A stretch of 64,000 bases of DNA from sequence record OR757454.1; one strand, written 5' to 3'. This DNA is from Escherichia phage BYEP02. Numbering within the stretch: the first letter of the stretch is position 1; every line of letters starts with the position of its first letter. The position numbers and the translations under genes were made by a program. Positions 344 through 59,134 of the stretch are shown one piece after another. Under the pieces are notes generated by a model. That model did not search any database, was not told where the DNA came from, and worked only from the letters and a program-made list of their open reading frames with translations.

Positions 344-631
344 ATGATTCTTTATGCTAAAGTATCATCCATTGAAAATGGATATAAATATGATCAAGAA
401 GCAGTTAAAGCCTTGATTGATGATTATGGCATTTTAACATGTTTTGAAGTTGAAAAGGTTTATGTTGACCGTTCATCTTCTCAAGTTAAATTAGTGAAGG
501 AAGACCGTAAATTTAATACAGTAAATTTTGATTTCTTTATTGAAACAGAAAAAGGTCCTCTTGAATATGATATTTTCAAGAATCCTTTGGGTCTTGAATG
601 CATCGTAAATATGTATTATCATAAATGGTAA
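344..631 (+). CDS. hypothetical protein (95 aa)
   Basis: ATG 344 just after upstream stop; ORF to TAA 629-631. Confidence 0.5.
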   Translation: MILYAKVSSIENGYKYDQEAVKALIDDYGILTCFEVEKVYVDRSSSQVKLVKEDRKFNTVNFDFFIETEKGPLEYDIFKNPLGLECIVNMYYHKW

Positions 632-782
632 ATATGCTTTAAGAATTATTTGTTATTATTAACTCATATCGCACTGATTAATACCCTCTATCATCAAGGG
701 TTCTTTAAATATGCTTTAAGAATTATTTGTTATTATTAACTCATACCGCACTGATTAATACCCTCTATCATCAAGGGTTCTT
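629..782. repeat. 77-bp tandem duplication (629-705 / 706-782), 1 mismatch, intergenic
   Basis: Two adjacent near-identical 77-nt units read directly. Confidence 0.9.
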
Positions 783-1525: not shown

Positions 1526-1752
<227 letters not shown>

Positions 1753-1762
1753 TATGGAGACT

Positions 1763-1852
1763 GGAGGCGTGGCAGAGTGGTTTAATGCACCGGTCTTGAA
1801 AACCGGCAGTCGCTCCGGCGACTCATAGGTTCAAATCCTATCGCCTCCGCCA
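1763..1852 (+). tRNA. tRNA-Ser (anticodon TGA), class II long variable arm
   Basis: Acceptor ggaggcg/cgcctcc, anticodon loop ctTGAaa. Confidence 0.85.
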
Positions 1853-1962
1853 GTTTTGCTGATTTAGCTCAGTAGGTAGAGCACAGTCGCTCCGGCGACT
1901 CATAGGTTCAAATCCTATCGCCTCCGCCAGTTTTTGCTGATTTAGCTCAGTAGGTAGAGCAC
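1808..1962. repeat. 77/78-bp tandem duplication (1808-1884 / 1885-1962) across the Ser-Thr junction, one 1-nt indel
   Basis: 3' part of tRNA-Ser plus spacer plus 5' part of tRNA-Thr repeated. Confidence 0.9.
1858..1929 (+). pseudogene. chimeric tRNA-like element: tRNA-Thr 5' half fused to tRNA-Ser 3' half
   Basis: Thr acceptor/D-arm (gctgatttagctcag...) followed by Ser variable arm/T-arm/acceptor at the duplication junction. Confidence 0.7.
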
Positions 1963-2011
1963 CTCACTTGTAATGAGGACGTCGGCGGTTCGATTCCGTC
2001 AATCAGCACCA
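1936..2011 (+). tRNA. tRNA-Thr (anticodon TGT)
   Basis: Acceptor gctgatt/aatcagc, anticodon loop ctTGTaa, CCA encoded. Confidence 0.85.
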
Positions 2012-2012
2012 A

Positions 2013-3160: not shown

Positions 3161-3210
3161 CAAACACTTGCCTTAGCAGGTGGAACCCCGACAAGGTTGC
3201 CGCAAGGCTT

Positions 3211-3239
3211 AGCCCCGACCGAAAGGTTGGGGCTTTTTG
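3211..3239 (+). terminator. intrinsic terminator, 10-bp stem, GAAA loop, T-tract
   Basis: agccccgacc-gaaa-ggttggggct followed by ttttt. Confidence 0.7.
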
Positions 3240-3291
3240 GTATAACACTTGCCTTAGCAGGTGGAACCCCGACAAGGTTGCCGCAAGGCTT

Positions 3292-3320
3292 AGCCCCAGC
3301 CGAAAGGTTGGGGCTTTTTA
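3292..3320 (+). terminator. intrinsic terminator (second repeat unit)
   Basis: agccccagcc-gaaa-ggttggggct followed by tttt. Confidence 0.7.
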
Positions 3321-3321
3321 G

Positions 3322-3329
3322 TATAAATA
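3322..3329 (+). promoter_or_regulatory. T4-type late promoter TATAAATA
   Basis: Exact TATAAATA ~37 nt upstream of ATG 3366. Confidence 0.55.
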
Positions 3330-4080: not shown

Positions 4081-4421
4081 ATGGATAATTACGGCGAACT
4101 GTTCAACTTCTTTATGAAATGCGTTTCAGAAGATTTCGGTCGTACAGTGAATGATATTAAAGTCATCGGTCCTGACCATCCAACTTCTTTATGAAATGTG
4201 TTTCAGAAGATTTTGGTCGTACAGTGAATGATATTAAAGTTATCGGTCCTGATCATCCGATGTTTGAAACTTACGCAGTAATGGGTAATGAAGATGGTCA
4301 GTGGTATACTGTAAAGGTTGTGATTAACATGTTCACTGCTGAAGGTTATGTTAAACTGTCTTCTAAAGTTTACCATGATAACGATGAAATCGCAGAAGAA
4401 TATTTCAATAATATGAAATAA
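4081..4421 (+). CDS. hypothetical small protein, frameshifted by a 77-bp duplication
   Basis: ATG 4081; copy 1 gives premature stop; intact sub-ORF 4191-4421. Confidence 0.5.
4104..4257. repeat. 77-bp tandem duplication (4104-4180 / 4181-4257), 4 C/T mismatches
   Basis: Read directly; offset 77. Confidence 0.9.
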
Positions 4422-6482: not shown

Positions 6483-6922
6483 ATGCAAAAGCCAAAACTA
6501 AATAAAGTCAAATATTCGCTTCCTGAGTCATTTTTAATTTTTGCTGTGGCGTTGGCTGTAGCTCTTGCTGGTAGTCTTATTGGATTAATGATTGACTGTA
6601 TTATTTTAAACATCGATGGCACAGTAATTATAACAGATGTTTGGAGTGAACTTCGTTTTACTATAGCGATTTCATTATTTTCATTCTTTGGTACCATGTT
6701 ATATTTTCATTATGATAATTTTAAAATAAATTGGCAAAGAAAAAAGGATTACAAAATACAATTAAAAGAATATAATAATATTTTCATTATGATAATTTTA
6801 AAATAAATTGGCAAAGAAAAAAGGATTACAAAATACAATTAAAAGAATATAATAACTACATGTCTTATATTGAAAATGAATCAATGGAAGAGTTTGTGAG
6901 TGATTGTAGGAAAATTAAATGA
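6483..6922 (+). CDS. membrane protein, frameshifted by a 77-bp duplication
   Basis: Frame from ATG 6483 restored after removing 77 nt (121 codons). Confidence 0.5.
6704..6857. repeat. 77-bp tandem duplication (6704-6780 / 6781-6857), 1 mismatch
   Basis: Read directly. Confidence 0.9.
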
Positions 6923-7407: not shown

Positions 7408-8802
<1,395 letters not shown>

Positions 8803-9865: not shown

Positions 9866-10530
9866 ATGGACAATTCATGCGCCATGGAATGGCCCAAATT
9901 TAGAGAGAATAAAATGAGAACATTTTTAACTGGACCTTATCTATCCCTGATGAATGCTTTTACACACCATTCTGATGCTAGAGTAGAAGAAATTTGTAAA
10001 AACGATTATATCCCACCATTTGAAGACTTACTCAAACAGTATTGCACACTTCGACTAGATGGTGGACGTCAATCCGGTAAATCAACTGCCCGCCATTTGA
10101 AGAATTACTTAAACAGTACTGCACACTTCGACTAGATGGTGGACGTCAATCTGGTAAATCAATTGCTGTGACTAACTTTGCTGCTAATTGGTTGTATGAT
10201 GGCGGAACAGTTATTGTTCTTTCTAATACTTCAGCTTACGCTAAAATTTCTGCAAATAACATTAAAAAGGAATTTTCGCGTTATTCTAATGATGATATAC
10301 GTTTTCGTTTATTTACTGATTCTGTGCGCAGTTTTATTGGTAATAAAGGAAGCAAGTTCAGAGGTTTATCGCTTTCGCGAATTTTGTATATAATCGATGA
10401 GCCTGTTAAATCTCCTGATATGGATAAAATTTACGATATTCATATTGAAACTGTGCACCACTGTTGCAATAGTAAATGCTGCATTGGTGGTATTACTCGT
10501 CCACAGTTTTTCATAATCGGAATGCAATGA
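9866..10530 (+). CDS. P-loop protein (GGRQSGKS), frameshifted by a 77-bp duplication; true start may be ATG 9914
   Basis: Walker-A-like GGRQSGKS duplicated with the repeat; frame restored on removing 77 nt. Confidence 0.45.
10018..10171. repeat. 77-bp tandem duplication (10018-10094 / 10095-10171), 5 mismatches
   Basis: Read directly. Confidence 0.9.
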
Positions 10531-11227: not shown

Positions 11228-11525
11228 TGGCAAAGATAATTATTGAAGGTTCTGAAGATGTGCTAAATGCTTTCGCCGAATGGTTTAGTAATTCAGGCGA
11301 ACAGCAATTTAATGAAGCGTGGAAGGTTCTAAAGATGTGCTAAATGCTTTCGCCGAATGGTTTAGTAATTCAGGCGAACAGCAATTTAACGAAGCATGGA
11401 ACATGGGTGATATTAATGGAATTTATCCTACTACAGAAATTTCTGTTCAAGGATATGGCATTCATGAACCTATTCGTTTAGTTGAATACGATTTATGTAC
11501 TGGTGAGGAAGTCAAATATGATTGA
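11227..11525 (+). CDS. hypothetical small protein, frameshifted by a 77-bp duplication
   Basis: ATG 11227 overlapping upstream stop; 74 codons after removing 77 nt. Confidence 0.45.
11245..11398. repeat. 77-bp tandem duplication (11245-11321 / 11322-11398), 3 mismatches
   Basis: Read directly. Confidence 0.9.
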
Positions 11526-13136: not shown

Positions 13137-13470
13137 AATTTTGGTTTTATGTATAGGATTAATTTCATTTTCTGCGTTAGCAAATACATCATACACTGAA
13201 ATTAGAGAGTATGTAAACCGTACTGCCGCGGATTATTGTGGGAAAAATAAAGCATGCCAAGCTGAATTTGCGCAGAAATTAATATATGCATATAAAGACG
13301 GAGAAAGAGATAAATCAAGTAGATACAAAAATGATACTTTATTAAAACGATATGCTAAAAAGTGGAATACCTTAGAATGTTCAGTTGCGGAGGAGAAAGA
13401 TAAAGCCGCTTGTCATTCAATGGTTGACCGTTTGGTAGATTCTTATAATCGAGGATTGAGTACTAGATGA
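13129..13470 (+). CDS. secreted/periplasmic protein (113 aa)
   Basis: Signal peptide MTKILVLCIGLISFSALA; four Cys. Confidence 0.5.
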   Translation: MTKILVLCIGLISFSALANTSYTEIREYVNRTAADYCGKNKACQAEFAQKLIYAYKDGERDKSSRYKNDTLLKRYAKKWNTLECSVAEEKDKAACHSMVDRLVDSYNRGLSTR

Positions 13471-13581
13471 TTGTAAAATATATCAAGGGCGATATTGTCG
13501 CCCTCCGTTTGGTAGATTCTTATAATCGAGGATTGAGTACTAGATGATTGTAAAATATATCAAGGGCGATATTGTCGCCCT
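13428..13581. repeat. 77-bp tandem duplication (13428-13504 / 13505-13581), identical; spans a gene junction, both genes intact
   Basis: Read directly. Confidence 0.9.
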
Positions 13582-15930: not shown

Positions 15931-16390
15931 AATTCAGCGACTTTTCACAAAGTGGAAAACCTTCAAAGGCAGATGAATACTTAGGTTTATTAATGGCTGC
16001 ACAAGCTTATTTTCATTCTGCTCACAAAGTGGAAAACCTTCAAAGGCAGATGAATACTTAGGTTTATTAATGGCTGCACAAGCTTATTTTCATTCTGCAC
16101 ATTTTGAAACTAAAAGTTATGCTAGACACAAAGCATACGATTTTATTTTCTCCGAGTTGCCAGATTTGATTGATAAATTTGGTGAGCAATATTTGGGGTA
16201 TTCTGGTAGAAAATACACACCTTCAATTCCAGATGCTAGTAAACTTCCTACCGACACAATTAAAATGATTGATCGCATACTAGACCAATCTAACAGCATT
16301 TATAAAGAAATGCCTCCAGCCATCCAAAGCACGATAGATGATATTACTGGAATGTTTTACCAGAGTAAGTATCTTCTTTCCCTCGAATAA
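15927..16390 (+). CDS. hypothetical protein, frameshifted by a 77-bp duplication
   Basis: ATGA overlap with rI stop; 129 codons after removing 77 nt. Confidence 0.5.
15946..16099. repeat. 77-bp tandem duplication (15946-16022 / 16023-16099), 0-1 mismatch
   Basis: Read directly. Confidence 0.9.
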
Positions 16391-17856: not shown

Positions 17857-18467
17857 ATGAAACGATTAGTATTAGAAGTTAGTTCATTTTTTGGTGAATT
17901 GGCTATAGAAAAAGTAAATAATATGTATCGTTTGACGCAAGAAGACGATATGCTATATTTTACGCCTAGCGAAATTATTCATTTAACCCAAATTGAAAAA
18001 CCTTACACTGATAAAATTGTAAGCATTAATGATGAGCATAAAATTCATTTCTATTCTTTATGCCCAGGATTTAACATTGAAAGCGAGTCAATATGCTTAT
18101 CAGTTATCCATTGGGATAGTTTTATAGCTAAGATTAAATATTTTTATTATTCTAATGAAAGAAAACATAGTTTAAAATGGCTCAAAAATTGCAATGCTAT
18201 TATTACTAACGCTTGCAATCAGAATGATGAAACTGTTTTAAACATAGTTTAAAATGGCTCAAAAATTGCAATGCTATTATTACTAACGCTTGCAATCAGA
18301 ATGATGAAACTGTTTTAAATGTATCAAAATGTTATGAAGATGGAGATGTCTTAACTATTCGTCAAATTGATGATTTTCGAGCGCATATTGTCACATTTAC
18401 CAAAGACGAAGCTATTGCGTTAAAGACTTATCTTGATTCTGTCATTCCAACTATGATTTCAAAGTGA
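17857..18467 (+). CDS. hypothetical protein, frameshifted by a 77-bp duplication
   Basis: 178 codons after removing 77 nt. Confidence 0.5.
18164..18317. repeat. 77-bp tandem duplication (18164-18240 / 18241-18317), identical
   Basis: Read directly. Confidence 0.9.
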
Positions 18468-19465: not shown

Positions 19466-20552
19466 TGAAAACAGTAATGAAAAGCTATTTTGGTAGTCAT
19501 CTTTATGGAACTTCTACTCCAGAATCTGATGTAGATTTTAAAGAAATCTTTGTTCCTCCTGCTCGTGATATTCTTATTGGAAATGTTAAAGAGCATATGA
19601 GCAAAAACACTAACAACACATCATCTAAAAACACTAAAGATGATATTGACCATGAACTATACAGTCTTAAGTATTTCTTTAAATTAGCAGCAGATGGTGA
19701 AACTGTAGCATTGGATATGCTCCACACTCCACCTGAACTAGTCTTAAATATTTCTTTAAATTAGCAGCAGATGGTGAAACCGTAGCATTGGATATGCTTC
19801 ACACTCCACCTGAACTAGTGGTTAAATCTGATTTGCCTGATGTGTGGAAGTTTATTCAAGACAACCGTTCTCGTTTTTATACGACTAACATGAAATCCTA
19901 TTTAGGATATGTCCGTAAGCAAGCTTCTAAATATGGCGTCAAGGGTTCTCGTTTGGCTGCATTACGTGATGTATTGAAAGTAGTTAATCAAATCCCTGAG
20001 CAATGGATTGATTACCAAGAAGATGGTTCTATTAAGCAGCGTCGTACTAAAGTTGAAGATATTAAGCATCGTCTTCCAGAAAACGAATTCTGTGAATGGG
20101 TGTTCCATAATCATGAGAAAACAGGCCCACAAACGTTCTACACTGTGTTGGGTCGTAAATATCAGACAACGCTTTCTCTTATTGAGCTTAAGCAGTCACT
20201 GAACAAATTAGATGCTGAATACGGTGAACGCGCTCGTAAGGCCGAAGCCAATGAAGGCATTGACTGGAAAGCTCTGAGCCATGCCTGCCGTGGTGGACTC
20301 CAACTATTGGAAATTTACAAAACTGGTGACTTGGTTTATCCACTCCAAGATGCTCCATTTATTCTCGACGTGAAGTTGGGTAAACACCCATTTAAAACAG
20401 TTCAAGAGTTTTTGGAAGATGTGGTCGATCAAGTAGAAGCAGCATCTACTGAAGCTTCTAAGAACGGTATGCAGCAAAAAGTAGACATGGGTTTCTGGGA
20501 TGACTTCCTTGAGAAGGTTTATCTTGAAAACCACCGAAGCTATTATAAATGA
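19462..20552 (+). CDS. nucleotidyltransferase-fold protein, frameshifted by a 77-bp duplication
   Basis: N-terminal FGSHLYGTSTPESDVDF fits the GS...D.D minimal nucleotidyltransferase signature; 338 codons after removing 77 nt. Confidence 0.55.
19664..19817. repeat. 77-bp tandem duplication (19664-19740 / 19741-19817), 3 mismatches
   Basis: Read directly. Confidence 0.9.
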
Positions 20553-21408: not shown

Positions 21409-22454
21409 ATGAAAACTGTAACTATCAATAAGGGTATCTACTTCGGTAAAGAAATCTCTGGAACTTTTGAGCTCTTAGGCGAATGGTTCCCAGATAATGC
21501 TCCGGTAGATGCACAAGGAGATGGTAAAGTTTTTGTTGAAATTGACGGTAAACGTCGCGGTGTTTGGGTTTACAAATCAGACATTTCATATGATGGTGTA
21601 AAAGTTGAAGAAGTTAAAGAATCGTATGAAGATATGAAAACCCGCATTAATAAAAGATTTAATGTTATGGGAATGATGACGAATGGTATTATTAATGGAA
21701 ACATTCGTTCATTAATTATCTCTGGTGCGGCGGGTATTGGTAAAACGTATTCTTTAGATAAAGCTTTGAATAAAGCAAATGATAATGGATACATTGAATA
21801 TAAAAGCATTAACGGTAAAATCTCTGGTATTGGTCTTTATGAGCAGCTTTGGAATAATCGTGAAGAGAATTCTGTCCTTTTGATTGATGATGTGGATGTT
21901 TTCTCTGATATGGACATTCTTAATCTTCTAAAAGCCGCTCTGGACACTGGAGAGACCCGTAAAGTCTGCTGGAGCACTGCATCTTCTTACTTAGAAGAAA
22001 AAGGCATTGAGCGTGAGTTTGAATTTAAAGGAACGATTGTTTTTATCACAAACGTTGACATTGACCGCGAATTAGACCGTGGTACTAAACTTGCTCCACA
22101 CTTACAAGCATTAGTGTCCCGCTCAGTTTATTTGGATTTGGGTGTTCATACTAATGAAGAAATTATGGTCAGGGTTGAAGATGTTATTCTTTCAACTGAC
22201 ATGATGCAAAAGCGCGGTCTTTCTACACTAATGAAGAAATTATGGTCAGGGTTGAAGATGTTATTCTTTCAACCGACATGATGCAAAAGCGCGGTCTTTC
22301 TGATGAAGAAACTTATAAAGCATTATCATGGATGAAAGTCAATGTTAACCGTTTACGCAATGTTTCACTGCGTACTGCACTTTATCTTGCTGACTTTATT
22401 ATGACCGACAAAAACGGCTGGCAAGAAATCGCTGAGGTTACTCTTCTGAAATAA
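21409..22454 (+). CDS. P-loop ATPase (AAA-like), frameshifted by a 77-bp duplication
   Basis: Walker A GAAGIGKTY, Walker B LLIDDVD; 323 codons after removing 77 nt. Confidence 0.6.
22148..22301. repeat. 77-bp tandem duplication (about 22148-22224 / 22225-22301), 1-3 mismatches
   Basis: Offset 77 between repeated ATG-containing segments. Confidence 0.85.
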
Positions 22455-23912: not shown

Positions 23913-24884
23913 ATGTCAGCAGTAATTAATAATGTCAATGCAGTAATTAAATCTTTAGTTAATAAAAAAATGATGAATGAATGGACTGTATTTCGTCGTG
24001 GAGAGCCAGATAAATTTTTTCATAGATTTAACCCAACTTTGGATTTGAATGTTATCGACAAAGATGTTCATGCTGAAATTTTAGATAAGTTTAAAGTTGA
24101 TATTGGATTTGGATTAGAAAAACATCTACAGCGAACAAATGGGTCTGGAATGAGTTTATCTAATCGCATTATGAAAGCCCTTAATAAAATTGGAGCATTG
24201 TCTCGTATTAAGCGAACAAACGGGTCTGGAATGGGTTTATCTAATCGCATTATGAAAGCCCTTAATAAAATTGGAGCATTGTCTCGTATTAATGCAAGTG
24301 AAATTCTTCGCAATTATAATAAAGGCTATGATCTTTACGGTCGACTAATGCCGAAATTATCATTTGACCAAATGATCGCAGATTTGTGGGAAAATCAACG
24401 ACGATTATTAGCATTAGGCGCTCGATTAGCTAAAGGTCTAGATAAACAAATGATTTTTAAGACCAATAATACAGAAGACCTTAAATGCTTTAAATTTAGT
24501 ATTCGCGGCGATGATTATTACGTCAGAGCTCGCTCTACAGATTATGTTAATATGGGGCATCATCTCTGTTTAGCTTTTGAAGTTTTAAAAGAAGCCGGAA
24601 CATTAGAATATGTGTCTGGTGCTAAATGCCCGATTGGTTCAAGTTGTATTTTAATTTATCGCCCGGATGAATCCAGTTTAACTAAATTGCCTACAAAACC
24701 TGTACCAGTTCGCAGTAATGAAAAACATTCTGAGCAAATTGATTATTTTAATAAGCAAATTGAAGAGCTGAATATTTCTATTCAACAGTATGACGATGAA
24801 ATTTTCAGACTATCTGGATTGAGTAGTAAAGCTAAATCTGAGCGTGAAAAATTAATTAAAATTGTTGATTTACTTAAATCTTAA
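23913..24884 (+). CDS. hypothetical protein A of a 4-gene tandem set; contains an in-frame 27-aa tandem repeat; C-terminal coiled coil
   Basis: ORF intact through 81-bp repeat; C-terminus heptad-like. Confidence 0.55.
   Translation: MSAVINNVNAVIKSLVNKKMMNEWTVFRRGEPDKFFHRFNPTLDLNVIDKDVHAEILDKFKVDIGFGLEKHLQRTNGSGMSLSNRIMKALNKIGALSRIKRTNGSGMGLSNRIMKALNKIGALSRINASEILRNYNKGYDLYGRLMPKLSFDQMIADLWENQRRLLALGARLAKGLDKQMIFKTNNTEDLKCFKFSIRGDDYYVRARSTDYVNMGHHLCLAFEVLKEAGTLEYVSGAKCPIGSSCILIYRPDESSLTKLPTKPVPVRSNEKHSEQIDYFNKQIEELNISIQQYDDEIFRLSGLSSKAKSEREKLIKIVDLLKS
24131..24292. repeat. 81-bp in-frame tandem repeat (24131-24211 / 24212-24292), 3 mismatches
   Basis: Encodes RTNGSGMSLSNRIMKALNKIGALSRIK / RTNGSGMGLSNRIMKALNKIGALSRIN. 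Confidence 0.9.
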
Positions 24885-25975: not shown

Positions 25976-26977
25976 ATGACTCGTAACGAATATATCAAAT
26001 CATTCAATAGCGTTATTGATGATAAAGCTATACCGATGTTTGGTCAAAATATCGTTCTTTCTATTATCAATCAATGGCTCAATAGTGTTGATGCAAGTAT
26101 TGTTTCTTCTACTAAATTTATTCATGAAATTCGTAAAATTTCTAGTCGTGTAGATAAAGATGTTATCAAGAAAACCTTTAAAGAGTCTCGTCTTCTTTCA
26201 TATTTGGTTAATCGGGATATTCTTGGTAATTTTGGGAAAGAAATTAAACGAACTAAAGATGTAGTAGGATATAATTGGTTCGGTGATGTTAATTCTTATC
26301 ATCTTAATAATAAAGAAGACCCTGAGAATATTTTTACTCGTCGTTGGATTAGTAATTTCAGACTTTTCAAAGGACAGATTCTAAAATCAGCTTCTAAATT
26401 ATGTTATGGCGATTATCGTCAAATTCATCCTTTGGCTTCTGATATGATTATCGTAAAAGAATATGAACTTGATAAAAATAAAGTATCTATTTTTGTGAAT
26501 TATGGATTTTTTACACCAGAAACTAACCAAAAGAATATTAATAAATTTTTCTCAATTGCTAGCACTATAACTCGTCAATTAGAGACCGCATTACTTTGTA
26601 TGGAAACAGTAGAAAATATTCATACTTATCCTTTTAAGAATATATGCGGTTGGGAAGGATATAAAATTGTAATTAGTCTTCGTGAAGTGAAATGTGCTTA
26701 TTCACCTACTGATAAAGAAATTTACCAACAAAAATGTGATGAAATTGTGAATACTCCTAAAGAAGAAACTACCCTTGAGGAACTAATGGAATGTCTTGAC
26801 GATTCACCTGAACCGGTAGAAATTCGTCCAGAAGTTATTGCACTAGAAAAAGCTTATAAAGAAGTTCTAGAAATTTCTAATAAAGCGCAGAAAGAATATG
26901 AGAAGGCTAAAAGGATTTGGGAAGAATCTGTTAATCGCCTTGATCGTTTGGAACAAGCTTTACAGTTAATTAAGTAA
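25976..26977 (+). CDS. hypothetical protein C of tandem set (333 aa); C-terminal coiled coil
   Basis: ATG with GAGGAG RBS. Confidence 0.55.
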   Translation: MTRNEYIKSFNSVIDDKAIPMFGQNIVLSIINQWLNSVDASIVSSTKFIHEIRKISSRVDKDVIKKTFKESRLLSYLVNRDILGNFGKEIKRTKDVVGYNWFGDVNSYHLNNKEDPENIFTRRWISNFRLFKGQILKSASKLCYGDYRQIHPLASDMIIVKEYELDKNKVSIFVNYGFFTPETNQKNINKFFSIASTITRQLETALLCMETVENIHTYPFKNICGWEGYKIVISLREVKCAYSPTDKEIYQQKCDEIVNTPKEETTLEELMECLDDSPEPVEIRPEVIALEKAYKEVLEISNKAQKEYEKAKRIWEESVNRLDRLEQALQLIK

Positions 26978-27083
26978 TTTAAAGCCAAGGATGGCTCGGA
27001 GTATAAGTTAATCGTCTTGATCGTCTGGAACAAGCTTTACAGTTAATTAAGTAATTTAAAGCCAAGGATGGCTCGGAGTATAA
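26930..27083. repeat. 77-bp tandem duplication (26930-27006 / 27007-27083), 2 mismatches; gene 3' end and intergenic
   Basis: Read directly. Confidence 0.9.
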
Positions 27084-29146: not shown

Positions 29147-29317
29147 ATGATTTACGATATTAGTGTATCAAGAACTCCGTCAATGGTTACTATTCCAGCC
29201 GAAGAACTAGATCGTCTTCAGAAAATTGAAGAACTTCTTTGGGAAATTGAATCTGATTTGCCATCAGGACTAGAATCCTGGATTGATTATGAAGAACTTA
29301 ATAAGCTTCGGGGTTAA
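29147..29317 (+). CDS. hypothetical acidic protein (56 aa)
   Basis: ATG 3 nt after upstream stop. Confidence 0.4.
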   Translation: MIYDISVSRTPSMVTIPAEELDRLQKIEELLWEIESDLPSGLESWIDYEELNKLRG

Positions 29318-29395
29318 AGGAAATTGAATCTGATTTGCCATCAGGACTAGAATCCTGGATTGATTATGAAGAACTTAATAAGCTTCGGGGTTAAA
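29242..29395. repeat. 77-bp tandem duplication (29242-29318 / 29319-29395), identical
   Basis: Read directly. Confidence 0.9.
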
Positions 29396-29516: not shown

Positions 29517-30002
29517 ATGATTACAGTAGATAAGTGGTTTAGAATTAATCGTGCTGATACAGGGCTGTGTAATTACTGGCCGGAACTTAGTGCAGGTACT
29601 GTCTTTAAAGTTCGTGAACTTGCAAAAGAATGTGAAGATGATATAGAGCCTGATACTGGAATTATTGAAATTGAACTTTCCGACGGAAAGATTATTAACA
29701 TCTATGATAAGCCAATTACGTATTGGTGCTTGTGGAATACTGAATCAGTAGAAAATGGCGAAATTGAAGAAGTTGTAGAGCGAACTAATCAAGTTGTTCA
29801 GAAGCCTAAAGCCGATTTTCAAGGTGAACGTATTTCATACGCATTAGCTAAATTAGCTGCACAAGAAAATAACGATGGTTATGAAGGAAATTTGATGCAA
29901 GCTGCGGCAGAATATATTGAATGGCTTGAAACTCAAATTTCTTTTTCTGACCAAAAGATTCGGCAATATAAGCGATTGAATCAAATGTTTTACAATACTT
30001 GA
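29517..30002 (+). CDS. pin: Pin-like protein (protease inhibitor), by position between nrdC and 49
   Basis: 161 aa ORF in the T4 pin position; identity not confirmed by motif. Confidence 0.55.
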   Translation: MITVDKWFRINRADTGLCNYWPELSAGTVFKVRELAKECEDDIEPDTGIIEIELSDGKIINIYDKPITYWCLWNTESVENGEIEEVVERTNQVVQKPKADFQGERISYALAKLAAQENNDGYEGNLMQAAAEYIEWLETQISFSDQKIRQYKRLNQMFYNT

Positions 30003-30086
30003 AAATAATGCTGCGGCAGAATATATTGAATGGCTTGAAACTCAAATTTCTTTTTCTGACCGAGCGTTTTAATACTTGAAAATAAT
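29901..30086. repeat. imperfect direct repeat: 109-bp unit (29901-30009) then 77-bp variant unit (30010-30086) sharing a 52-bp identical core
   Basis: Second unit looks like the first with a ~32-bp internal deletion. Confidence 0.8.
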
Positions 30087-30121: not shown

Positions 30122-30672
30122 ATGTTATTGACTGGCAAATTATACAAAGAAGAAAAACAGAAATTTTATGATGCACAAAACGGTAAATGCTTAATTTGCC
30201 AACGAGAACTAAATCCTGATGTTCAAGCTAATCACCTTGACCATGACCATGAATTAAATGGACCGAAAGCTGGAAAGGTGCGTGGATTGCTCTGTAATCT
30301 TTGCAATGCTGCGGAAGGTCAAATGAAGCATAAATTTAATCGTTCTGGCTTAAAGGGACAAGGTGTTGATTATCTTGAATGGTTAGAAAATTTACTTACT
30401 TATTTAAAATCCGATTACACCCAAAATAATATTCACCCTAACTTTGTTGGAGATAAATCAAAGGAATTTTCTCGTTTAGGAAAAGAGGAAATGATGGCTG
30501 AGATGCTTCAAAGAGGATTTGAATATAATGAATCTGACACGAATTTTCTCGTTTAGGAAAAGAGGAAATGATGGCCGAGATGCTTCAAAGAGGATTTGAA
30601 TATAATGAATCTGACACAAAAACACAGTTAATAGCTTCATTCAAGAAGCAGCTTAGAAAGAGTTTAAAATGA
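30122..30672 (+). CDS. 49: endonuclease VII (Holliday-junction resolvase), frameshifted by a 77-bp duplication
   Basis: Translation MLLTGKLYKEEKQKFYDAQNGKCLICQREL... matches T4 gp49; 157 aa after removing 77 nt. Confidence 0.9.
30464..30617. repeat. 77-bp tandem duplication (30464-30540 / 30541-30617), 1 mismatch, inside gene 49
   Basis: Read directly. Confidence 0.9.
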
Positions 30673-32563
30673 CAATTGAAAAAGAAATTGAAGGATTGAT
30701 TCATAAAACTAATAAAGACCTTTTGAACGAGAATGCTAATAAAGATTCTCGTGTTTTTCCAACTCAACGGGACCTTATGGCTGGTATTGTGTCTAAACAC
30801 ATTGCCAAAAATATGGTCCCGTCTTTTATTATGAAAGCGCATGAAAGCGGAATTATTCATTTCCATGATATTGATTATTCCCCTGCTCTTCCATTTACTA
30901 ATTGCTGTTTAGTAGATTTAAAAGGAATGCTTGAGAACGGATTTAAGCTTGGTAATGCACAGATTGAAACTCCTAAATCAATTGGCGTTGCTACTGCAAT
31001 TATGGCACAAATTACTGCACAGGTTGCTTCCCATCAATATGGCGGAACGACTTTTGCGAATGTAGATAAAGTACTTTCTCCTTATGTTAAACGCACATAT
31101 GCAAAACATATTGAGGATGCAGAAAAATGGCAAATCGCTGATGCGTTGAATTATGCTCAATCTAAAACAGAAAAAGACGTATACGATGCATTCCAAGCTT
31201 ATGAATATGAAGTAAATACTCTCTTTAGTTCAAACGGGCAAACACCTTTTGTAACAATTACATTTGGTACGGGAACTGACTGGACTGAACGAATGATTCA
31301 GAAAGCAATTCTGAAAAATCGTATTAAAGGTCTTGGTCGTGATGGGATAACTCCTATTTTCCCTAAGCTTGTTATGTTTGTTGAAGAAGGTGTTAATCTT
31401 TACAAAGACGATCCGAACTATGATATTAAGCAGCTTGCTCTAGAGTGTGCAAGCAAAAGGATGTATCCTGATATTATTTCAGCTAAGAACAATAAAGCTA
31501 TCACTGGTTCATCTATTCCTGTTTCTCCAATGGGATGCCGTAGTTTCTTGAGCGTATGGAAAGATTCGACTGGCAATGAAATTCTTGATGGACGTAATAA
31601 TCTTGGTGTTGTAACACTGAATCTTCCTCGCATCGCGTTAGATTCTTATATTGGAACACAGTTCAATGAACAGAAATTTGTTGAATTATTCAATGAACGA
31701 ATGGATTTGTGTTTTGAAGCTTTGATGTGTAGAATTAGTTCCTTAAAAGGAGTTAAAGCTACTGTTGCTCCTATTCTTTACCAAGAAGGTGCATTCGGGG
31801 TTCGTCTTAAACCTGATGACGATATAATTGAGTTATTTAAAAACGGTAGAAGTTCAGTCAAGAAGGTGCATTCGGGGTTCGTCTTAAACCTGATGACGAC
31901 ATAATTGAGTTATTTAAAAACGGTAGAAGTTCAGTGTCCTTAGGATACATTGGTATTCACGAATTGAATATTCTTGTCGGTCGTGATATTGGACAAGAAA
32001 TTTTAACTAAGATGAATGCTCATCTTAAACAGTGGACCGAAAGAACCGGTTTTGCTTTTAGCTTGTATTCTACTCCTGCTGAAAACCTTTGCTATCGCTT
32101 CTGTAAACTTGATACTGAAAAATATGGAAGCGTAAAAGATGTTACTGATAAAGGTTGGTACACTAATAGTTTCCATGTTTCAGTAGAAGAAAATATCACT
32201 CCGTTTGAAAAGATTTCTCGTGAAGCACCATATCATTTCATTGCGACAGGTGGTCACATTTCTTATGTTGAACTTCCTGATATGAAAAATAACCTAAAAG
32301 GTCTTGAGGCTGTATGGGATTATGCTGCACAACATTTAGATTATTTTGGTGTTAACATGCCAGTAGATAAATGTTTTACGTGTGGAAGCACTCATGAAAT
32401 GACTCCTACTGAAAACGGATTTGTTTGTTCTATTTGTGGAGAAACTGATCCTAAAAAGATGAACACAATAAGAAGAACATGCGGCTATCTTGGAAACCCG
32501 AACGAACGCGGATTTAATCTCGGCAAAAATAAAGAAATCATGCATAGGGTTAAACACCAATGA
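30669..32563 (+). CDS. nrdD: anaerobic ribonucleotide reductase NrdD, frameshifted by a 77-bp duplication; no intron
   Basis: 605 aa after removing 77 nt; both halves read as T4 NrdD. Confidence 0.9.
31782..31935. repeat. 77-bp tandem duplication (31782-31858 / 31859-31935), 1 mismatch, inside nrdD
   Basis: Read directly. Confidence 0.9.
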
Positions 32564-33144: not shown

Positions 33145-33434
33145 ATGTATAAATTTCGTAAAGGTTTAGCTGATTTTCTTACAACTGTAACGTTCTTTTT
33201 GTTTATGGCAGTTGGAGCTATTTTCCTTATTCCTTTTATTGCTATATTTTTCGTGATTAGCTTAATTTCTCCAGAAAAAGGCTTATCTTCTAGGCTATTT
33301 TCCTTATTCCTTTTATTGCTATATTTTTCGTGATTAGTTTGATTTCTCCAGAAAAGGGCTTATCTTCTAGTGAGTTCAATGAGCGTCTGGATAAAATTAC
33401 TAACAAGCTGAATGCTGCTCTTAGTAAGGAATAG
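33145..33434 (+). CDS. small membrane protein, frameshifted by a 77-bp duplication
   Basis: 71 codons after removing 77 nt. Confidence 0.45.
33218..33371. repeat. 77-bp tandem duplication (33218-33294 / 33295-33371), 3 mismatches
   Basis: Read directly. Confidence 0.9.
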
Positions 33435-36732: not shown

Positions 36733-36904
36733 AATTAATGCAGGATTTACTGAATCTTTGAATGGTCATCTTTGTGTGAAAATTTCTGAAAAAGAATACC
36801 ATGATAGTTCAATTAAAGAAGTTAATCCTCCTATTGTAAGAGCAGACCCTAATATGAAAGTGTGGGTTGATTCTTATCAAGTCAAAAAATGGTGGCAACT
36901 GTGA
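36701..36904 (+). CDS. hypothetical protein (67 aa)
   Basis: ATG overlapping upstream 3' end. Confidence 0.45.
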   Translation: MLTHVKFKRLKINAGFTESLNGHLCVKISEKEYHDSSIKEVNPPIVRADPNMKVWVDSYQVKKWWQL

Positions 36905-37049
36905 AAGATGAACACCCAGACTTCTGAAATAGATTATAATAAAATTCGTTCCTCTAAAGTAGAAATGATGAGCAACTGTGAAAGATGAACGCCCAGACTT
37001 GTGAAATAGATTATAATAAAATTCGTTCCTCTAAAGAGGAAATGATGAG
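36896..37049. repeat. 77-bp tandem duplication (36896-36972 / 36973-37049), 4 mismatches
   Basis: Read directly. Confidence 0.9.
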
Positions 37050-40070: not shown

Positions 40071-41826
40071 AGAATTTTAAACTTAACCGAGTTAGGTATC
40101 AAAATATAATGTCAGTAGGTGGAAATCCTATTGACATTCAACTAGATAAGGTTCAAAAAACTCTTATTACTGGACGAAATGGCGGTGGTAAGTCTACTAT
40201 GCTAGAATTGACATTCAATTAGATAAGGTTCAAAAAACTCTTATTACTGGACGAAATGGCGGTGGTAAGTCTACTATGTTAGAAGCCATCACATTCGGGC
40301 TTTTTGGCAAGCCATTCCGTGATGTAAAGAAAGGCCAATTAATAAACAGTACAAATAAGAAAGAACTTTTAGTTGAACTGTGGATGGAATATGACGAGAA
40401 AAAGTACTATATCAAAAGAGGACAAAAACCAAACGTTTTCGAAATCACCGTTAACGGTACACGTCTTAATGAATCTGCCAGCAGTAAAGATTTCCAAGCA
40501 GAATTTGAACAGCTTATCGGAATGTCATATGCCAGTTTCAAGCAGATTGTTGTCCTTGGTACAGCAGGGTATACCCCTTTCATGGGTTTGTCGACCCCTG
40601 CGCGAAGAAAGCTTGTGGAAGACCTGCTCGAGGTAGGAACATTAGCTGAAATGGATAAGCTTAATAAAGCACTAATACGTGAATTAAATTCACAAAACCA
40701 AGTGCTTGATGTTAAAAAAGATAGTATTATCCAGCAAATTAAAATATATAATGATAACGTTGAACGCCAGAAAAAATTAACTGGTGATAACCTTACTCGT
40801 CTACAGAATATGTATGATGATTTAGCAAAAGAAGCTAGAACGCTAAAATCGGAAATAGAAGAAGCTAATGAAAGATTAGTTAATATTGTTTTGGATGAAG
40901 ACCCGACTGATGCATTTAATAAAATCGGTCAAGAAGCATTTTTAATTAAATCAAAAATTGACTCGTATAATAAAGTCATTAATATGTATCACGAAGGTGG
41001 ATTATGTCCAACCTGTTTGTCACAATTAAGTTCTGGTGATAAAGTTGTTTCTAAAATTAAAGATAAAGTTTCTGAATGTACGCATTCATTTGAACAGCTT
41101 TCAACACATCGTGATAATTTAAAAGTTCTTGTTGACGAATACCGAGATAATATTAAAACCCAGCAGACGTTGGCAAATGATATTCGCAATAAAAAGCAAT
41201 CTCTAATCACGACTGTAGATAAAGCTAAAAAAGTTAAAGCAGCTATAGAAAAAGCATCATCTGAGTTTATTGACCATGCTGATGAAATAGCACTGCTTCA
41301 AGAAGAACTTGATAAAATTGTTAAGACAAAAACTAATTTAGTAATGGAAAAATACCACAGAGGAATTTTGACTGATATGCTCAAAGATTCTGGTATTAAA
41401 GGTGCTATTATTAAAAAGTACATTCCATTATTTAATAAGCAGATTAACCATTATCTTAAAATAATGGAAGCGGATTATGTGTTTACATTAGATGAAGAAT
41501 TTAATGAGACAATTAAATCCCGTGGTCGTGAAGATTTTAGTTATGCTTCATTTAGTGAAGGTGAAAAAGCACGAATTGATATTGCTCTTTTATTTACTTG
41601 GCGTGATATTGCTTCTATTGTATCTGGTGTTAGTATTAGTACATTAATTCTTGATGAAGTGTTTGATGGGTCATTTGATGCCGAAGGTATTAAAGGTGTA
41701 GCTAATATTATAAATTCAATGAAAAATACTAATGTTTTTATAATTTCGCATAAAGACCATGACCCGCAAGAATATGGTCAGCATCTTCAAATGAAGAAAG
41801 TTGGTCGATTTACTGCAATGGTTTAA
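40067..41826 (+). CDS. 46: recombination ATPase gp46 (Rad50/SbcC-like), frameshifted by a 77-bp duplication
   Basis: Walker A GRNGGGKST (duplicated by the repeat); 560 aa after removing 77 nt; GTG start. Confidence 0.9.
40131..40284. repeat. 77-bp tandem duplication (40131-40207 / 40208-40284), 2 mismatches, inside gene 46
   Basis: Read directly. Confidence 0.9.
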
Positions 41827-42079: not shown

Positions 42080-42546
42080 ATGACTAAAATTACTGTGAAT
42101 TATACTGTTGATGTAAAAGATATTCAGCCAAAACACGTGCGTTCTGATTCAAATCCACAAAACCAAAATAAAATTCGTCGAGCATGGGTTTTGTCTCTTT
42201 CTGATAACGCAATGGAAGTTATTCAGAACAAAATTAAATCTGCACCTGCTCGTCATGCGTATTATGAAGCTATCGATCGTGAAGTAAGTAATAAATGGAT
42301 TGAACTAATGCGCAAACATACTACAGAATCCCTAAACGCCGGTGCTAAATTTATTATGACTTCATGTGGTGAACGCCTTGAAGATGACGCAAACATACTA
42401 CAGAATCCCTAAACGCCGGTGCTAAATTTATTATGACTTCATGTGGTGAACGTCTTGAAGATGATTATTGCGGTAATGCAGATGAACGTCTAATTGTTGC
42501 TGCTCAAATTGTTGCGGAAACAATTGCGGCTGATTTTAATCGTTAA
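42080..42546 (+). CDS. rpbA: RNA polymerase binding protein RpbA, frameshifted by a 77-bp duplication
   Basis: 129 aa after removing 77 nt; sits between 46 and 45 as in T4. Confidence 0.7.
42313..42466. repeat. 77-bp tandem duplication (42313-42389 / 42390-42466), 1-2 mismatches
   Basis: Read directly. Confidence 0.9.
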
Positions 42547-42699
42547 TTGCTTTATTAAATTAGTTATAAAATTAAATCTCATTTGAATTGAAGGAAATTA
42601 CATGAAACTGTCTAAAGATACAATTGCTTTATTAAATTAGTTATAAAATTAAATCTCATTTGAATTGAAGGAAATTACATGAAACTGTCTAAAGATACA
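42546..42699. repeat. 77-bp tandem duplication (42546-42622 / 42623-42699), identical; duplicates the gene 45 promoter, RBS and first 7 codons
   Basis: Read directly. Confidence 0.9.
42624..42649 (+). promoter_or_regulatory. possible MotA-dependent middle promoter (TTGCTTTA box plus TATAAA)
   Basis: ttgctttattaaattagttataaaat ~30 nt upstream of gene 45 ATG. Confidence 0.4.
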
Positions 42700-43416: not shown

Positions 43417-44453
43417 ATGATTACTGTAAATGAAAAAGAACACATTCTTGAACAGAAATATCGTCCATCTACTATCGATGAATGTATTCTTCCCGCCTTT
43501 GATAAAGAAACCTTTAAATCTATTACAAGTAAAGGTAAGATTCCACATATTATTCTTCATTCTCCTTCTCCAGGAACAGGTAAAACAACCGTAGCAAAAG
43601 CATTGTGTCATGACGTAAATGCTGATATGATGTTTGTGAATGGGTCAGATTGTAAAATTGATTTCGTTCGTGGTCCTTTGACTAATTTTGCTAGTGCAGC
43701 TTCATTTGATGGTCGTCAAAAAGTAATTGTTATTGATGAATTTGACCGTTCAGGGTTAGCAGAGTCTCAAGTGCAGCTTCATTTGATGGTCGTCAAAAAG
43801 TAATCGTTATTGATGAATTTGACCGTTCAGGGCTAGCAGAGTCTCAGCGACATCTTCGTTCATTTATGGAAGCTTATAGTTCAAACTGTAGTATTATTAT
43901 TACTGCTAACAATATTGATGGTATTATTAAACCGCTTCAGTCACGCTGCCGAGTTATTACATTCGGTCAACCGACCGATGAAGATAAAATTGAAATGATG
44001 AAGCAGATGATTCGTCGATTGACTGAAATCTGCAAGCGTGAAGGAATTGCTATAGCTGATATGAAAGTTGTAGCAGCTTTGGTTAAAAAGAATTTTCCTG
44101 ATTTTCGTAAAACTATTGGCGAGCTTGATAGTTATTCATCTAAAGGTGTTTTGGATGCTGGTATTTTATCACTGGTTACTAACGATCGTGGTGCTATTGA
44201 TGATGTTCTTGAATCTCTCAAAAATAAAGATGTTAAACAGCTCAGAGCTTTAGCACCAAAATATGCAGCTGATTATTCGTGGTTCGTAGGTAAACTTGCC
44301 GAAGAAATTTATTCACGTGTAACTCCGCAAAGTATTATTCGTATGTATGAAATTGTTGGTGAAAATAACCAGTATCATGGTATTGCAGCTAATACTGAGT
44401 TACATTTAGCATATCTTTTCATTCAATTGGCATGCGAAATGCAGTGGAAGTGA
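43417..44453 (+). CDS. 44: clamp-loader large subunit gp44, frameshifted by a 77-bp duplication
   Basis: Walker [11 protein letters not shown]; 319 aa after removing 77 nt. Confidence 0.9.
43694..43847. repeat. 77-bp tandem duplication (43694-43770 / 43771-43847), 3 mismatches, inside gene 44
   Basis: Read directly. Confidence 0.9.
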
Positions 44454-56147: not shown

Positions 56148-56307
56148 AACATATAAAGAATTTATTAAAGAAGATATGGTTGCTGGAGATTCAGGTGGTA
56201 ATCCTGAAAATATCTCTACTGGAACAACGTCAGGTGCTGTAGTAAATAAAGGTCCTGAACAGATTCCTAAAAAGAAAAAAGAGGAATCTAAAGAAAAAGA
56301 AGAGTAA
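56143..56307 (+). CDS. small protein (54 aa) with capsid-targeting-like N-terminus MKTYKEFIKE
   Basis: ATG 2 nt after upstream stop; Lys/Glu-rich tail; not in supplied ORF track. Confidence 0.4.
   Translation: MKTYKEFIKEDMVAGDSGGNPENISTGTTSGAVVNKGPEQIPKKKKEESKEKEE

Positions 56308-57711: not shown

Positions 57712-59134
<1,423 letters not shown>

What the first reader, a model, noticed from the sequence alone, without database searches (positions are those of the whole stretch)
1808..1962. Duplication across the Ser-Thr junction creates a chimeric tRNA
The repeated unit runs from the 3' half of tRNA-Ser through the spacer into the 5' half of tRNA-Thr. The junction fuses a Thr acceptor/D-arm to a Ser variable arm/T-arm/acceptor. 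If real it would yield a processed but mis-paired tRNA-like RNA; more likely it is one of the 77-bp artefacts (here 78 because of a 1-nt T-run difference).
Basis: seen in the sequence. Interest (0 to 1): 0.4.

Follow-up and report, generated by a model that had tools for sequence, protein, structure and literature searches.

The report
Assembly-join artefact in phage tRNA cluster
The repeated Ser-spacer-Thr block is really in the sequence, but it is one of 34 fixed-length (77-base) stitching artefacts scattered through this T4-like phage contig, not a biological duplication or a new chimeric tRNA.

Summary
Window 1807-1883 (77 nt) is repeated at 1884-1961 (78 nt), differing only by a T4/T5 run. 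The block runs from the tRNA-Ser variable arm to the end of the tRNA-Thr D arm.

It is not biology. The window is a Tequatrovirus (T4-like coliphage) region, 99% identical to phage slur03 over window 1-50000. It contains 34 places where the sequence steps back 77 nt (81 nt twice) and continues. No other tandem period between 20 and 400 occurs.

- slur03 has a single Ser-spacer-Thr unit. In about 500 related phage records the chimeric junction never aligns as one contiguous piece.
- Every 77-nt step-back inside an ORF breaks the frame, including DNA polymerase, gp41, gp46, NrdD and gp42. Deleting one copy restores full-length ORFs.
- At most junctions the left copy carries alleles of another natural T4-like lineage. 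The right copy returns to the slur03 sequence.

The pattern fits pieces of a mixed-strain short-read assembly, with 77 being a usual largest SPAdes k, chained without removing the overlaps. The exact software is unknown.

The "chimeric tRNA" has no anticodon arm and no pairable acceptor stem. ARAGORN does not call it, and it scores below the Rfam tRNA threshold. Interest is very low, except as a quality warning for this contig.

The parts
1763..1852 (+). Intact tRNA-Ser(UGA). Its 3' half (1807-1852) lies in copy A.
   Evidence: ARAGORN. Rfam tRNA 62.6 bits. Cloverleaf with long variable arm. Same gene annotated in slur03.
1807..1883 (+). Copy A of the repeated block (77 nt): Ser variable arm, T arm, acceptor 3' strand and CCA, the spacer GTTTT, and Thr nt 1-26. 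This is the tail of the left assembly piece.
   Evidence: The stretch 1763-1883 with the 5-nt spacer is 100% identical to many Tequatrovirus records, each listed with one matching place. slur03 has the 6-nt spacer.
1884..1961 (+). Copy B of the repeated block (78 nt, spacer GTTTTT). This is the head of the right assembly piece and is slur03-identical.
   Evidence: The piece 1884-3243 has no mismatch to slur03 until its position 1356.
1858..1929 (+). Chimeric tRNA-like stretch created by the join: Thr acceptor 5' strand and D arm, then Ser variable arm, T arm, acceptor 3' strand and CCA. It has no anticodon arm.
   Evidence: Not called by ARAGORN. Rfam tRNA 25.3 bits, below the gathering score of 29, covering model positions 8-63 only, at 1865-1918. 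The MFE fold has no acceptor stem and no cloverleaf.
1936..2011 (+). Intact tRNA-Thr(UGU). Its 5' 26 nt lie in copy B.
   Evidence: ARAGORN. Rfam 73.5 bits. Cloverleaf fold.
1598..1751 (+). Neighbouring 77-nt step-back (69/77 identical). It creates a truncated extra tRNA-Pro (1610-1675) upstream of the real tRNA-Pro at 1687-1761.
   Evidence: 49.6 bits, model positions 8-63. The truncated copy carries compensatory changes in the anticodon and T stems. It is 100% identical to the tRNA-Pro allele of phages VEc74 and ESh28.
629..782 (+). 77-nt step-back junction (76/77 identical).
3163..3324 (+). 81-nt step-back junction (78/81 identical), in frame.
4104..4257 (+). 77-nt step-back junction (73/77 identical). 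It breaks an ORF.
6701..6854 (+). 77-nt step-back junction (exact copies). It breaks an ORF.
7595..7748 (+). 77-nt step-back junction (75/77 identical). It breaks an ORF.
8459..8612 (+). 77-nt step-back junction (exact copies). It breaks an ORF.
10012..10165 (+). 77-nt step-back junction (71/77 identical). It breaks an ORF.
11245..11398 (+). 77-nt step-back junction (74/77 identical). It breaks an ORF.
13428..13581 (+). 77-nt step-back junction (exact copies) at a gene boundary.
15945..16098 (+). 77-nt step-back junction (exact copies). It breaks an ORF.
18163..18316 (+). 77-nt step-back junction (exact copies). It breaks an ORF.
19663..19816 (+). 77-nt step-back junction (74/77 identical). 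It breaks a 337-aa ORF.
22148..22301 (+). 77-nt step-back junction (75/77 identical). It breaks a 341-aa ORF.
24130..24291 (+). 81-nt step-back junction (79/81 identical), in frame. The ORF 23913-24884 reads through both copies.
26930..27083 (+). 77-nt step-back junction (75/77 identical).
29242..29395 (+). 77-nt step-back junction (exact copies).
29933..30086 (+). Hidden 77-nt step-back, with the join at 30009|30010. The right piece starts with a different indel haplotype, so the two 77-mers share only their last 16 nt. TRF missed it.
   Evidence: MAFFT shows exactly 77 extra nt compared with slur03.
30464..30617 (+). 77-nt step-back junction (76/77 identical). It breaks the endonuclease VII ORF.
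   Evidence: Gene name from the slur03 annotation.
31782..31935 (+). 77-nt step-back junction (76/77 identical). It breaks NrdD, which is 609 aa after de-duplication.
33217..33370 (+). 77-nt step-back junction (74/77 identical). It breaks an ORF.
36895..37048 (+). 77-nt step-back junction (73/77 identical).
40130..40283 (+). 77-nt step-back junction (75/77 identical). It breaks gp46, which is 564 aa after de-duplication.
42311..42464 (+). 77-nt step-back junction (76/77 identical). It breaks the RNA polymerase binding protein ORF.
42545..42698 (+). 77-nt step-back junction (exact copies).
43693..43846 (+). 77-nt step-back junction (75/77 identical). It breaks the clamp loader gp44 ORF.
45928..46081 (+). 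77-nt step-back junction (76/77 identical). It splits DNA polymerase gp43 into ORFs of 188 and 713 aa, against 901 aa after de-duplication.
50029..50182 (+). 77-nt step-back junction (70/77 identical). It breaks the dCMP hydroxymethylase gp42 ORF.
53778..53931 (+). 77-nt step-back junction (75/77 identical). It breaks the gp41 helicase ORF.
54290..54443 (+). 77-nt step-back junction (exact copies). It breaks a small ORF.
56275..56428 (+). 77-nt step-back junction (exact copies).
58981..59134 (+). 77-nt step-back junction (exact copies).
61851..62004 (+). 77-nt step-back junction (73/77 identical). It breaks an ORF.

Best explanation
The Ser-spacer-Thr repeat is a sequence-construction artefact, not a feature of any phage DNA molecule.

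The window is a chain of at least 35 assembly pieces from a T4-like coliphage sample. Each piece was written out together with a 77-nt leading overlap that repeats the last 77 nt of the piece before it. At 1883|1884 one such join falls between the end of the Thr D arm (left piece) and the start of the Ser variable arm (right piece). This makes a second partial Ser-Thr block and a tRNA-like chimera on paper only.

The following part is inferred, not shown. The pieces are probably contigs or graph edges from a de Bruijn assembly with k = 77, the usual largest SPAdes k. The library probably held a dominant slur03-identical phage plus one or more minor related strains. Each piece starts on the dominant strain, drifts onto a minor-strain branch and ends there. 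The next piece restarts 77 nt back on the dominant strain.

The true locus is the ordinary single Leu-Gly-Pro-Ser-Thr-Met(CAU)-Tyr-Asn-His-Arg tRNA cluster seen in slur03.
For: 1. Recurrence at one fixed length. TRF finds 31 two-copy arrays of period 77 and 2 of period 81. Alignment to slur03 shows 34 step-backs with a net 76-78 or 81 extra nt each, including a hidden one at 30009|30010. No other period from 20 to 400 gives any tandem repeat.

2. Absence in relatives. slur03 has one tRNA-Ser, a 6-nt spacer and one tRNA-Thr. The 1201-nt query maps to 1047 nt of slur03 in 3 pieces. The 81-nt probe across the chimeric junction matches 501 phage records, and in every listed record it splits into 2 pieces. 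The 34-nt junction string is absent from IMG/VR, JGI metagenome contigs and GTDB genomes, and a 211-nt stretch spanning the repeat has no match in complete E. coli genomes.

3. Incompatibility with a viable phage. All 22 of the 77-nt events that lie inside ORFs break the frame. Deleting one copy restores gp43 (901 aa), NrdD (609), gp46 (564), gp41 (478), gp44 (325) and gp42 (246). Only the two 81-nt events, a multiple of 3, stay in frame.

4. Haplotype switching exactly at the joins.
- 10 of 32 ungapped copy pairs are exact. The others differ at 1-8 sites with a transition:transversion ratio of 50:14.
- The right copy is nearly always slur03-identical, while the left copy carries variant alleles.
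- The slur03-identical run has a median of 17 nt before a join and 1028 nt after it. The run is longer after the join at 31 of 33 joins, p = 1.3e-7.
- The left-copy alleles are natural. The T4-spacer version of 1763-1883 is 100% identical to many Tequatroviruses. The truncated tRNA-Pro allele is 100% identical to VEc74 and ESh28.

5. The number 77. Identical 77-bp contig ends are reported in three papers that mention SPAdes (PMC8767329, PMC5671560, bioRxiv 10.1101/2022.04.05.487141). That 77 is the default largest SPAdes k for reads of about 150 nt is from my own knowledge.

6. The chimera is not a tRNA by any detector.
Against: - A strict de Bruijn overlap should be exact. Here 22 of 34 overlaps are inexact, one by a 1-nt indel and one by a roughly 32-nt indel haplotype.
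- Two overlaps are 81 nt, not 77.
- The strong left-to-right direction of the pattern is not a property of a plain graph. It needs an extra step, such as greedy chaining, per-piece polishing or glued bubble vertices, that I could not identify.
- No reads, assembly graph or source record were available. The source contig was not found in any collection.
- For this junction itself there is no reading frame to break. The case rests on its identity of form with the other 33, on its absence from relatives, and on the allele switch (T4 to T5) at the join.
Confidence: 0.95

Rival explanations
1. It is an artefact, but not from k-mer overlaps. Overlapping pieces (contigs or consensus blocks) were tiled left to right by a reference-guided or seed-and-extend procedure. 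That procedure always keeps a fixed 77-nt overlap or anchor and fails to merge it.
For: - The overlaps tolerate mismatches and indels, which exact k-mer adjacency would not.
- There is strong directionality, with a clean head and a divergent tail in 31 of 33 joins. This fits greedy tiling that uses each piece up to its own end and then enters the next piece in its interior.
Against: - Piece lengths are irregular, from 209 to 4101 nt.
- No single coordinate system makes all overlaps 77. The overlap at 1807 is 77 nt in the left piece but 78 nt in slur03. The overlap at 30009 is 77 nt in the right piece but 109 nt in slur03.
- The two 81-nt cases are unexplained here as well.
Confidence: 0.2
2. 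It is a genuine tandem duplication in the phage genome, or in a subpopulation. It would have arisen by slipped or illegitimate recombination between the Ser and Thr genes and would be transcribed within the tRNA precursor as a chimeric tRNA-like RNA.
For: - The sequence as given contains the duplication.
- A 2-nt microhomology (CA) sits at the join.
- The Ser variable-arm hairpin and T arm fold as expected in the chimera.
Against: - It has the same length and form as 33 other events that would inactivate essential genes.
- It does not align as one piece in any of 501 related records and is absent from three contig collections.
- The two copies carry different natural spacer alleles (T4 versus T5) that match different lineages. 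A recent duplication would not produce that difference.
- The chimera has no anticodon arm and an unpairable acceptor.
Confidence: 0.01
3. The window is a synthetic or simulated sequence, for example a constructed mis-assembly or generated text, rather than the output of an assembler run on reads.
For: - The source was not found in any collection searched.
- The step-back rule is unusually regular.
- The divergent tails match no known phage better than 98.5-98.7%.
Against: - The variation looks natural. The transition:transversion ratio is 50:14, there are compensatory stem changes in the extra tRNA-Pro, and mismatch spacing in coding tracts suggests third-codon positions.
- About 39 kb is 100% identical to slur03.
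- A nearest-relative identity of about 98.5% seems unremarkable for a new T4-like isolate (my judgement).
Confidence: 0.04

Closest known systems
k-mer-length overlaps between adjacent contigs or edges of de Bruijn graph assemblies (for example 77-bp identical ends of SPAdes contigs)
   Same: - The fixed length of 77 nt.
- It occurs at piece boundaries regardless of gene content.
- It disappears when one copy is trimmed.
- 77-bp identical contig ends are reported in papers that mention SPAdes.
   Different: - Here the overlaps are internal, because the pieces have already been concatenated.
- 22 of 34 are inexact.
- Two are 81 nt.
- They coincide with strain switches.
The tRNA gene cluster of T4-like (Tequatrovirus) phages, as annotated in slur03 (LN881728.1 99354-100298)
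   Same: After removing one copy, the locus has the same ten tRNAs in the same order: Leu, Gly, Pro, Ser, Thr, Met(CAU), Tyr, Asn, His, Arg. It is 99.3% identical.
   Different: The window carries two extra 77-nt blocks (1598-1674 and 1807-1883) that slur03 lacks. In every listed record the region aligns only as broken pieces.
Pseudo-tRNAs or hybrid tRNA genes formed by real recombination between tRNA genes
   Same: On paper the chimera joins the 5' part of one tRNA to the 3' part of another. It keeps a D arm and a T arm.
   Different: - The join is not at homologous positions (Thr nt 26 to Ser nt 45), so the anticodon arm is lost.
- The acceptor strands are unrelated.
- It does not reach the Rfam tRNA threshold.
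- There is no independent occurrence.

Membership tests
tRNA (Rfam RF00005), applied to the chimera at 1858-1929 | Score at or above the curated gathering threshold, and detection by a tRNA finder | tested here: not met
   Rfam gives 25.3 bits against a gathering score of 29, at 1865-1918. ARAGORN makes no call between Ser (ending at 1852) and Thr (starting at 1936).
tRNA (Rfam RF00005), applied to the chimera at 1858-1929 | A 7-bp acceptor stem formed by the 5' and 3' ends | tested here: not met
   The 5' strand GCUGAUU (Thr) faces the 3' strand CGCCUCC (Ser). The Rfam match covers model positions 8-63 only. The MFE structure has no acceptor stem.
tRNA (Rfam RF00005), applied to the chimera at 1858-1929 | An anticodon stem-loop | tested here: not met
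   The join runs from Thr nt 26 directly to the Ser variable arm. The only hairpins are the D-like arm, the Ser variable arm and the T arm.
tRNA (Rfam RF00005), applied to the chimera at 1858-1929 | D arm and T arm | tested here: met
   The T arm and the variable-arm hairpin are kept in the fold. D-arm sequence is present.
Assembly overlap (k-mer join) artefact | The same fixed repeat length recurs throughout the contig, independent of local function | tested here: met
   There are 34 step-backs of 77 nt (two of 81) across 64 kb, and no other period from 20 to 400.
Assembly overlap (k-mer join) artefact | Absent from closely related independent genomes, which carry one copy | tested here: met
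   slur03 has a single unit. All 34 are missing from slur03. The junction splits into 2 pieces in every listed record among 501 matches.
Assembly overlap (k-mer join) artefact | Removing one copy restores intact genes | tested here: met
   All 22 in-ORF 77-nt events break the frame, and de-duplication restores gp43, NrdD, gp46, gp41, gp44 and gp42.
Assembly overlap (k-mer join) artefact | The overlap copies are exact, as in a strict de Bruijn graph | tested here: inconclusive
   10 of 32 ungapped pairs are exact. The rest differ by 1-8 natural-looking substitutions or by indels. This requires mixed strains plus an additional processing step.
Assembly overlap (k-mer join) artefact | No sequencing reads span the join | not testable with these tools
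   No reads or assembly graph are available. The source record was not found.
Genuine tandem duplication | Found in independent isolates or assemblies, or supported by reads | tested here: not met
   The junction string is absent from IMG/VR, JGI metagenomes and GTDB genomes, and never aligns as one piece in INPHARED phages. A 211-nt stretch spanning the repeat has no match in complete E. coli genomes. Reads could not be tested.

The most novel reading that the evidence does not exclude
This one join, unlike the other 33, could reflect a real 77-78-nt tandem duplication in a minor phage subpopulation. It would be transcribed within the polycistronic tRNA precursor and would give an anticodon-less tRNA-like fragment carrying a Ser-type variable arm and T arm.
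Probability: 0.01. Interest if true: 0.25.

Novelty: not a real feature. Interest (0 to 1): 0.03.

Why it matters
It matters only as quality control. The contig carries 34 spurious insertions of 77 or 81 nt. They create two fake partial tRNAs and frameshift 22 ORFs, including essential replication genes. It also mixes at least two phage haplotypes.

Any gene, tRNA or repeat finding from this window should first be checked against the list of joins. Other first-stage findings in this window that involve 77-bp repeats, split genes or novel short ORFs next to these coordinates are very likely the same artefact.

Tried and rejected
1. Looking for the source record or any independent occurrence.
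- The exact 34-nt junction string gave no hit in IMG/VR viral contigs, JGI metagenome contigs or GTDB genome contigs.
- Megablast of 1780-1990 against complete E. coli genomes gave no hit.
- Exact-protein look-up of two junction-spanning ORFs (23913-24884 and 45467-46033) found nothing on record.

2. Testing whether the divergent tails come from one known phage, for example another slur isolate. The best identities were only 98.5-98.7% and came from different phages. The minor strain or strains therefore remain unidentified.

3. Finding one rule for the step-back. I tried same start, same end, slur03 coordinates and own coordinates. None fits all of the 1807, 30009 and 81-nt cases. The exact software step is left open.

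4. Considered a strict de Bruijn concatenation followed by polishing. It can explain substitutions and the T4/T5 indel, but not the roughly 32-nt indel haplotype at 30009|30010.

5. Considered whether the extra tRNA-Pro or the Ser/Thr chimera could be real pseudo-tRNAs. Rejected because relatives lack them and both end exactly at 77-nt joins.

6. Technical note. Loci L002, L003 and L006 did not reach the Python sandbox. The regions were re-fetched as L005, L007 and L008.

Full report
**What is there.** The window region 1400-2600 holds a tRNA gene cluster. ARAGORN finds Leu(UAA), Gly(UCC), Pro(UGG), Ser(UGA), Thr(UGU), Met(CAU), Tyr(GUA), Asn(GUU), His(GUG) and Arg(UCU) between 1434 and 2532. 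Reading the sequence, the 77 nt at 1807-1883 recur at 1884-1961 as 78 nt. The only difference is GTTTT versus GTTTTT in the spacer after the Ser CCA. TRF reports 1807-1962 with period 77, 2.0 copies, 98% matches and score 305.

The unit begins at the first base after the Ser anticodon stem (the stem's 3' strand ends at 1806). It ends at Thr-equivalent nucleotide 26, after the D arm. The intact tRNA-Ser (1763-1852) uses copy A for its 3' half. The intact tRNA-Thr (1936-2011) uses copy B for its 5' end. Between them lies a 72-nt chimera (1858-1929) made of the Thr acceptor 5' strand and D arm, then the Ser variable arm, T arm, acceptor 3' strand and CCA.

**It is one of many.**
- TRF lists 31 two-copy arrays of period exactly 77 and two of period 81 across the 64 kb.
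- My own scan of every period from 20 to 400 at 85% identity or more found only 77 (30 places) and 81 (2 places). It missed the Ser-Thr one because of its indel.
- Aligning the window to its closest relative shows the structure directly. The window is a chain of pieces, and at every boundary the alignment steps back 76-78 nt (81 twice) in the reference and continues.
- One further boundary, at 30009|30010, was invisible to repeat finders. There the right piece begins with a different indel haplotype. MAFFT shows exactly 77 extra bases relative to slur03.
- In total there are 34 joins, and the pieces are 209-4101 nt long.

**What the locus is.**
- The window is a Tequatrovirus (T4-like coliphage) region. 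It is 98.9-99.0% identical to Escherichia phage slur03 (LN881728.1) over window 1-50000, always in as many pieces as there are joins. For 50001-64000, vB_EcoM_FT ranks first in the database search, while piece-by-piece identity to slur03 ranges from about 97% to 100%.
- slur03 annotates the same ten tRNAs in the same order, with one tRNA-Ser (99606-99695), a 6-nt spacer and one tRNA-Thr (99702-99777).
- The 1201-nt query 1400-2600 maps to 1047 nt of slur03 in 3 pieces. The window has 154 more nt, close to the two extra blocks (77 and 78 nt).
- An 81-nt probe centred on the chimeric junction matches 501 phage records. In every listed record it aligns as two pieces, never contiguously.
- The 34-nt junction string is absent from IMG/VR, JGI metagenome contigs and GTDB genomes. 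A 211-nt stretch spanning the repeat has no match in complete E. coli genomes.

**Why it cannot be biology.**
- 77 is not a multiple of 3. Of the 77-nt events, 22 lie inside ORFs. In none of them does a window ORF read through both copies.
- Deleting one copy of each pair restores DNA polymerase gp43 (901 aa stop-to-stop), NrdD (609), gp46 (564), gp41 helicase (478), gp44 (325), gp42 (246) and others (gene names from the slur03 annotation).
- In the window gp43 is split into ORFs of 188 and 713 aa.
- Only the two 81-nt events stay in frame.
- A phage carrying all these lesions would not be viable.

**What the joins tell us about their origin.**
- The two copies at a join are often not identical. 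10 of 32 ungapped pairs are exact. The others differ at 1-8 sites, with 50 transitions to 14 transversions, which is the signature of natural polymorphism rather than random error.
- The differences are directional. The head of each piece (copy B) is almost always identical to slur03, while the tail of the preceding piece (copy A) carries the variant alleles.
- More generally, each piece begins slur03-identical for hundreds to thousands of bases, about 39 kb in total. It then becomes 2-4% divergent and stays so until its end.
- The slur03-identical run has a median of 17 nt before a join and 1028 nt after it. The run after the join is longer at 31 of 33 joins (binomial p = 1.3e-7).
- The variant alleles are real ones. 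The stretch 1763-1883 with the 5-nt spacer is 100% identical to many Tequatroviruses, such as Pinarejo, vB_EcoM_P8 and RB3-type phages, each listed with one matching place.
- The truncated extra tRNA-Pro made by the neighbouring join (1598-1751) has compensatory changes in its anticodon and T stems. It is 100% identical to the tRNA-Pro allele of VEc74 and ESh28.
- The long divergent tails match no known phage better than 98.5-98.7%.

At the Ser-Thr join itself, the left piece carries the T4-spacer allele of another lineage and the right piece carries the slur03 T5 allele. That explains the "78 instead of 77". It also argues against a recent duplication, which would give two identical copies.

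**Most likely mechanism.** It is shown that the window is a concatenation of pieces, each overlapping the previous one by a fixed 77 nt, and that haplotype switches coincide with the joins.

It is inferred that the pieces come from a de Bruijn graph short-read assembly with k = 77. The library would have held a dominant slur03-identical phage and at least one minor related strain. The pieces would have been chained left to right without trimming the overlap. 77-bp identical contig ends are reported in papers that mention SPAdes (PMC8767329, PMC5671560, bioRxiv 10.1101/2022.04.05.487141). That 77 is the default largest SPAdes k for reads of about 150 nt is from my own knowledge.

The 81-nt cases could be k plus a 4-nt shared edge, but this is speculation. 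The inexact overlaps, the one large-indel overlap and the strong directionality are not explained by a plain graph. They point to an extra step that I could not identify, such as greedy tiling, per-piece polishing or glued bubble vertices. A non-k-mer stitching procedure with a fixed 77-nt anchor remains possible. Either way the feature is an artefact.

**The chimera as an RNA.**
- ARAGORN does not call it.
- Against Rfam tRNA it scores 25.3 bits, below the gathering score of 29, and matches only model positions 8-63, so it has no acceptor stem.
- Its minimum-free-energy fold keeps the Ser variable-arm hairpin and the T arm, but has no acceptor stem, no anticodon arm and no cloverleaf. The real Ser, Thr and Pro sequences fold as cloverleaves.
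- Even if the DNA existed it would not be a tRNA.

**Comparison with known things and verdict.** The underlying locus is an ordinary member of the Tequatrovirus tRNA cluster. The repeat belongs with k-mer-overlap joining artefacts of short-read assemblies, with the unusual twist of inexact overlaps caused by mixed strains.

Nothing here is novel biology. The novelty class is "not a real feature" and interest is 0.03. The residual chance that this single join is a genuine duplication is about 1%. Reads spanning 1883|1884, or a PCR across Ser-Thr, would settle it.

Noticed in passing
window 1598-1751: A neighbouring 77-nt join creates a truncated second tRNA-Pro(UGG) at about 1610-1675. Rfam tRNA gives 49.6 bits over model positions 8-63, with no acceptor 3' strand. 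It differs from the real tRNA-Pro (1687-1761) by compensatory changes in the anticodon and T stems. It equals the VEc74/ESh28 allele 100%, so it is the tail of a piece from another strain.
   Followed up: yes
whole window (34 joins; list in parts): Each piece starts 100% slur03-identical and ends 2-4% divergent. The return to slur03 identity always happens at a join (31 of 33 joins, p = 1.3e-7). This implies a chimeric contig built from at least two co-assembled T4-like strains. The process that makes the pattern directional is not identified.
   Followed up: partly
window 3163-3324 and 24130-24291: Two joins step back 81 nt instead of 77, with 78/81 and 79/81 identity. They are in frame, so ORF 23913-24884 reads through a spurious 27-codon repeat. 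The reason for 81 is unknown.
   Followed up: partly
window 29933-30086 (join 30009|30010): A hidden join. The right piece starts with a haplotype that is about 32 nt shorter than slur03 in this intergenic stretch. The two 77-mers share only their last 16 nt, and repeat finders miss it. Other joins that are this diverged could exist where slur03 is not a good guide.
   Followed up: partly
window ~45382-45388: The window lacks about 215-222 nt that slur03 has at 141321-141535. This covers the small ORF43.1 between regA and gene 43. It looks like an ordinary presence/absence polymorphism of a small ORF.
   Followed up: no
window 2013-2087: The tRNA called Met(CAU) lies directly after tRNA-Thr. 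From memory, T4 has tRNA-Ile in that position, so it may be a CAU-anticodon isoleucine tRNA rather than a methionine tRNA. This was not tested.
   Followed up: no
phage records LN881728.1, LN881733.1, LN881736.1 (slur03, slur08, slur14): The three records have the same length (167467 bp) and give identical scores to the window at different coordinates or orientation. They appear to be the same genome deposited in different rotations. The dominant strain in the window is identical to them over about 39 kb.
   Followed up: no
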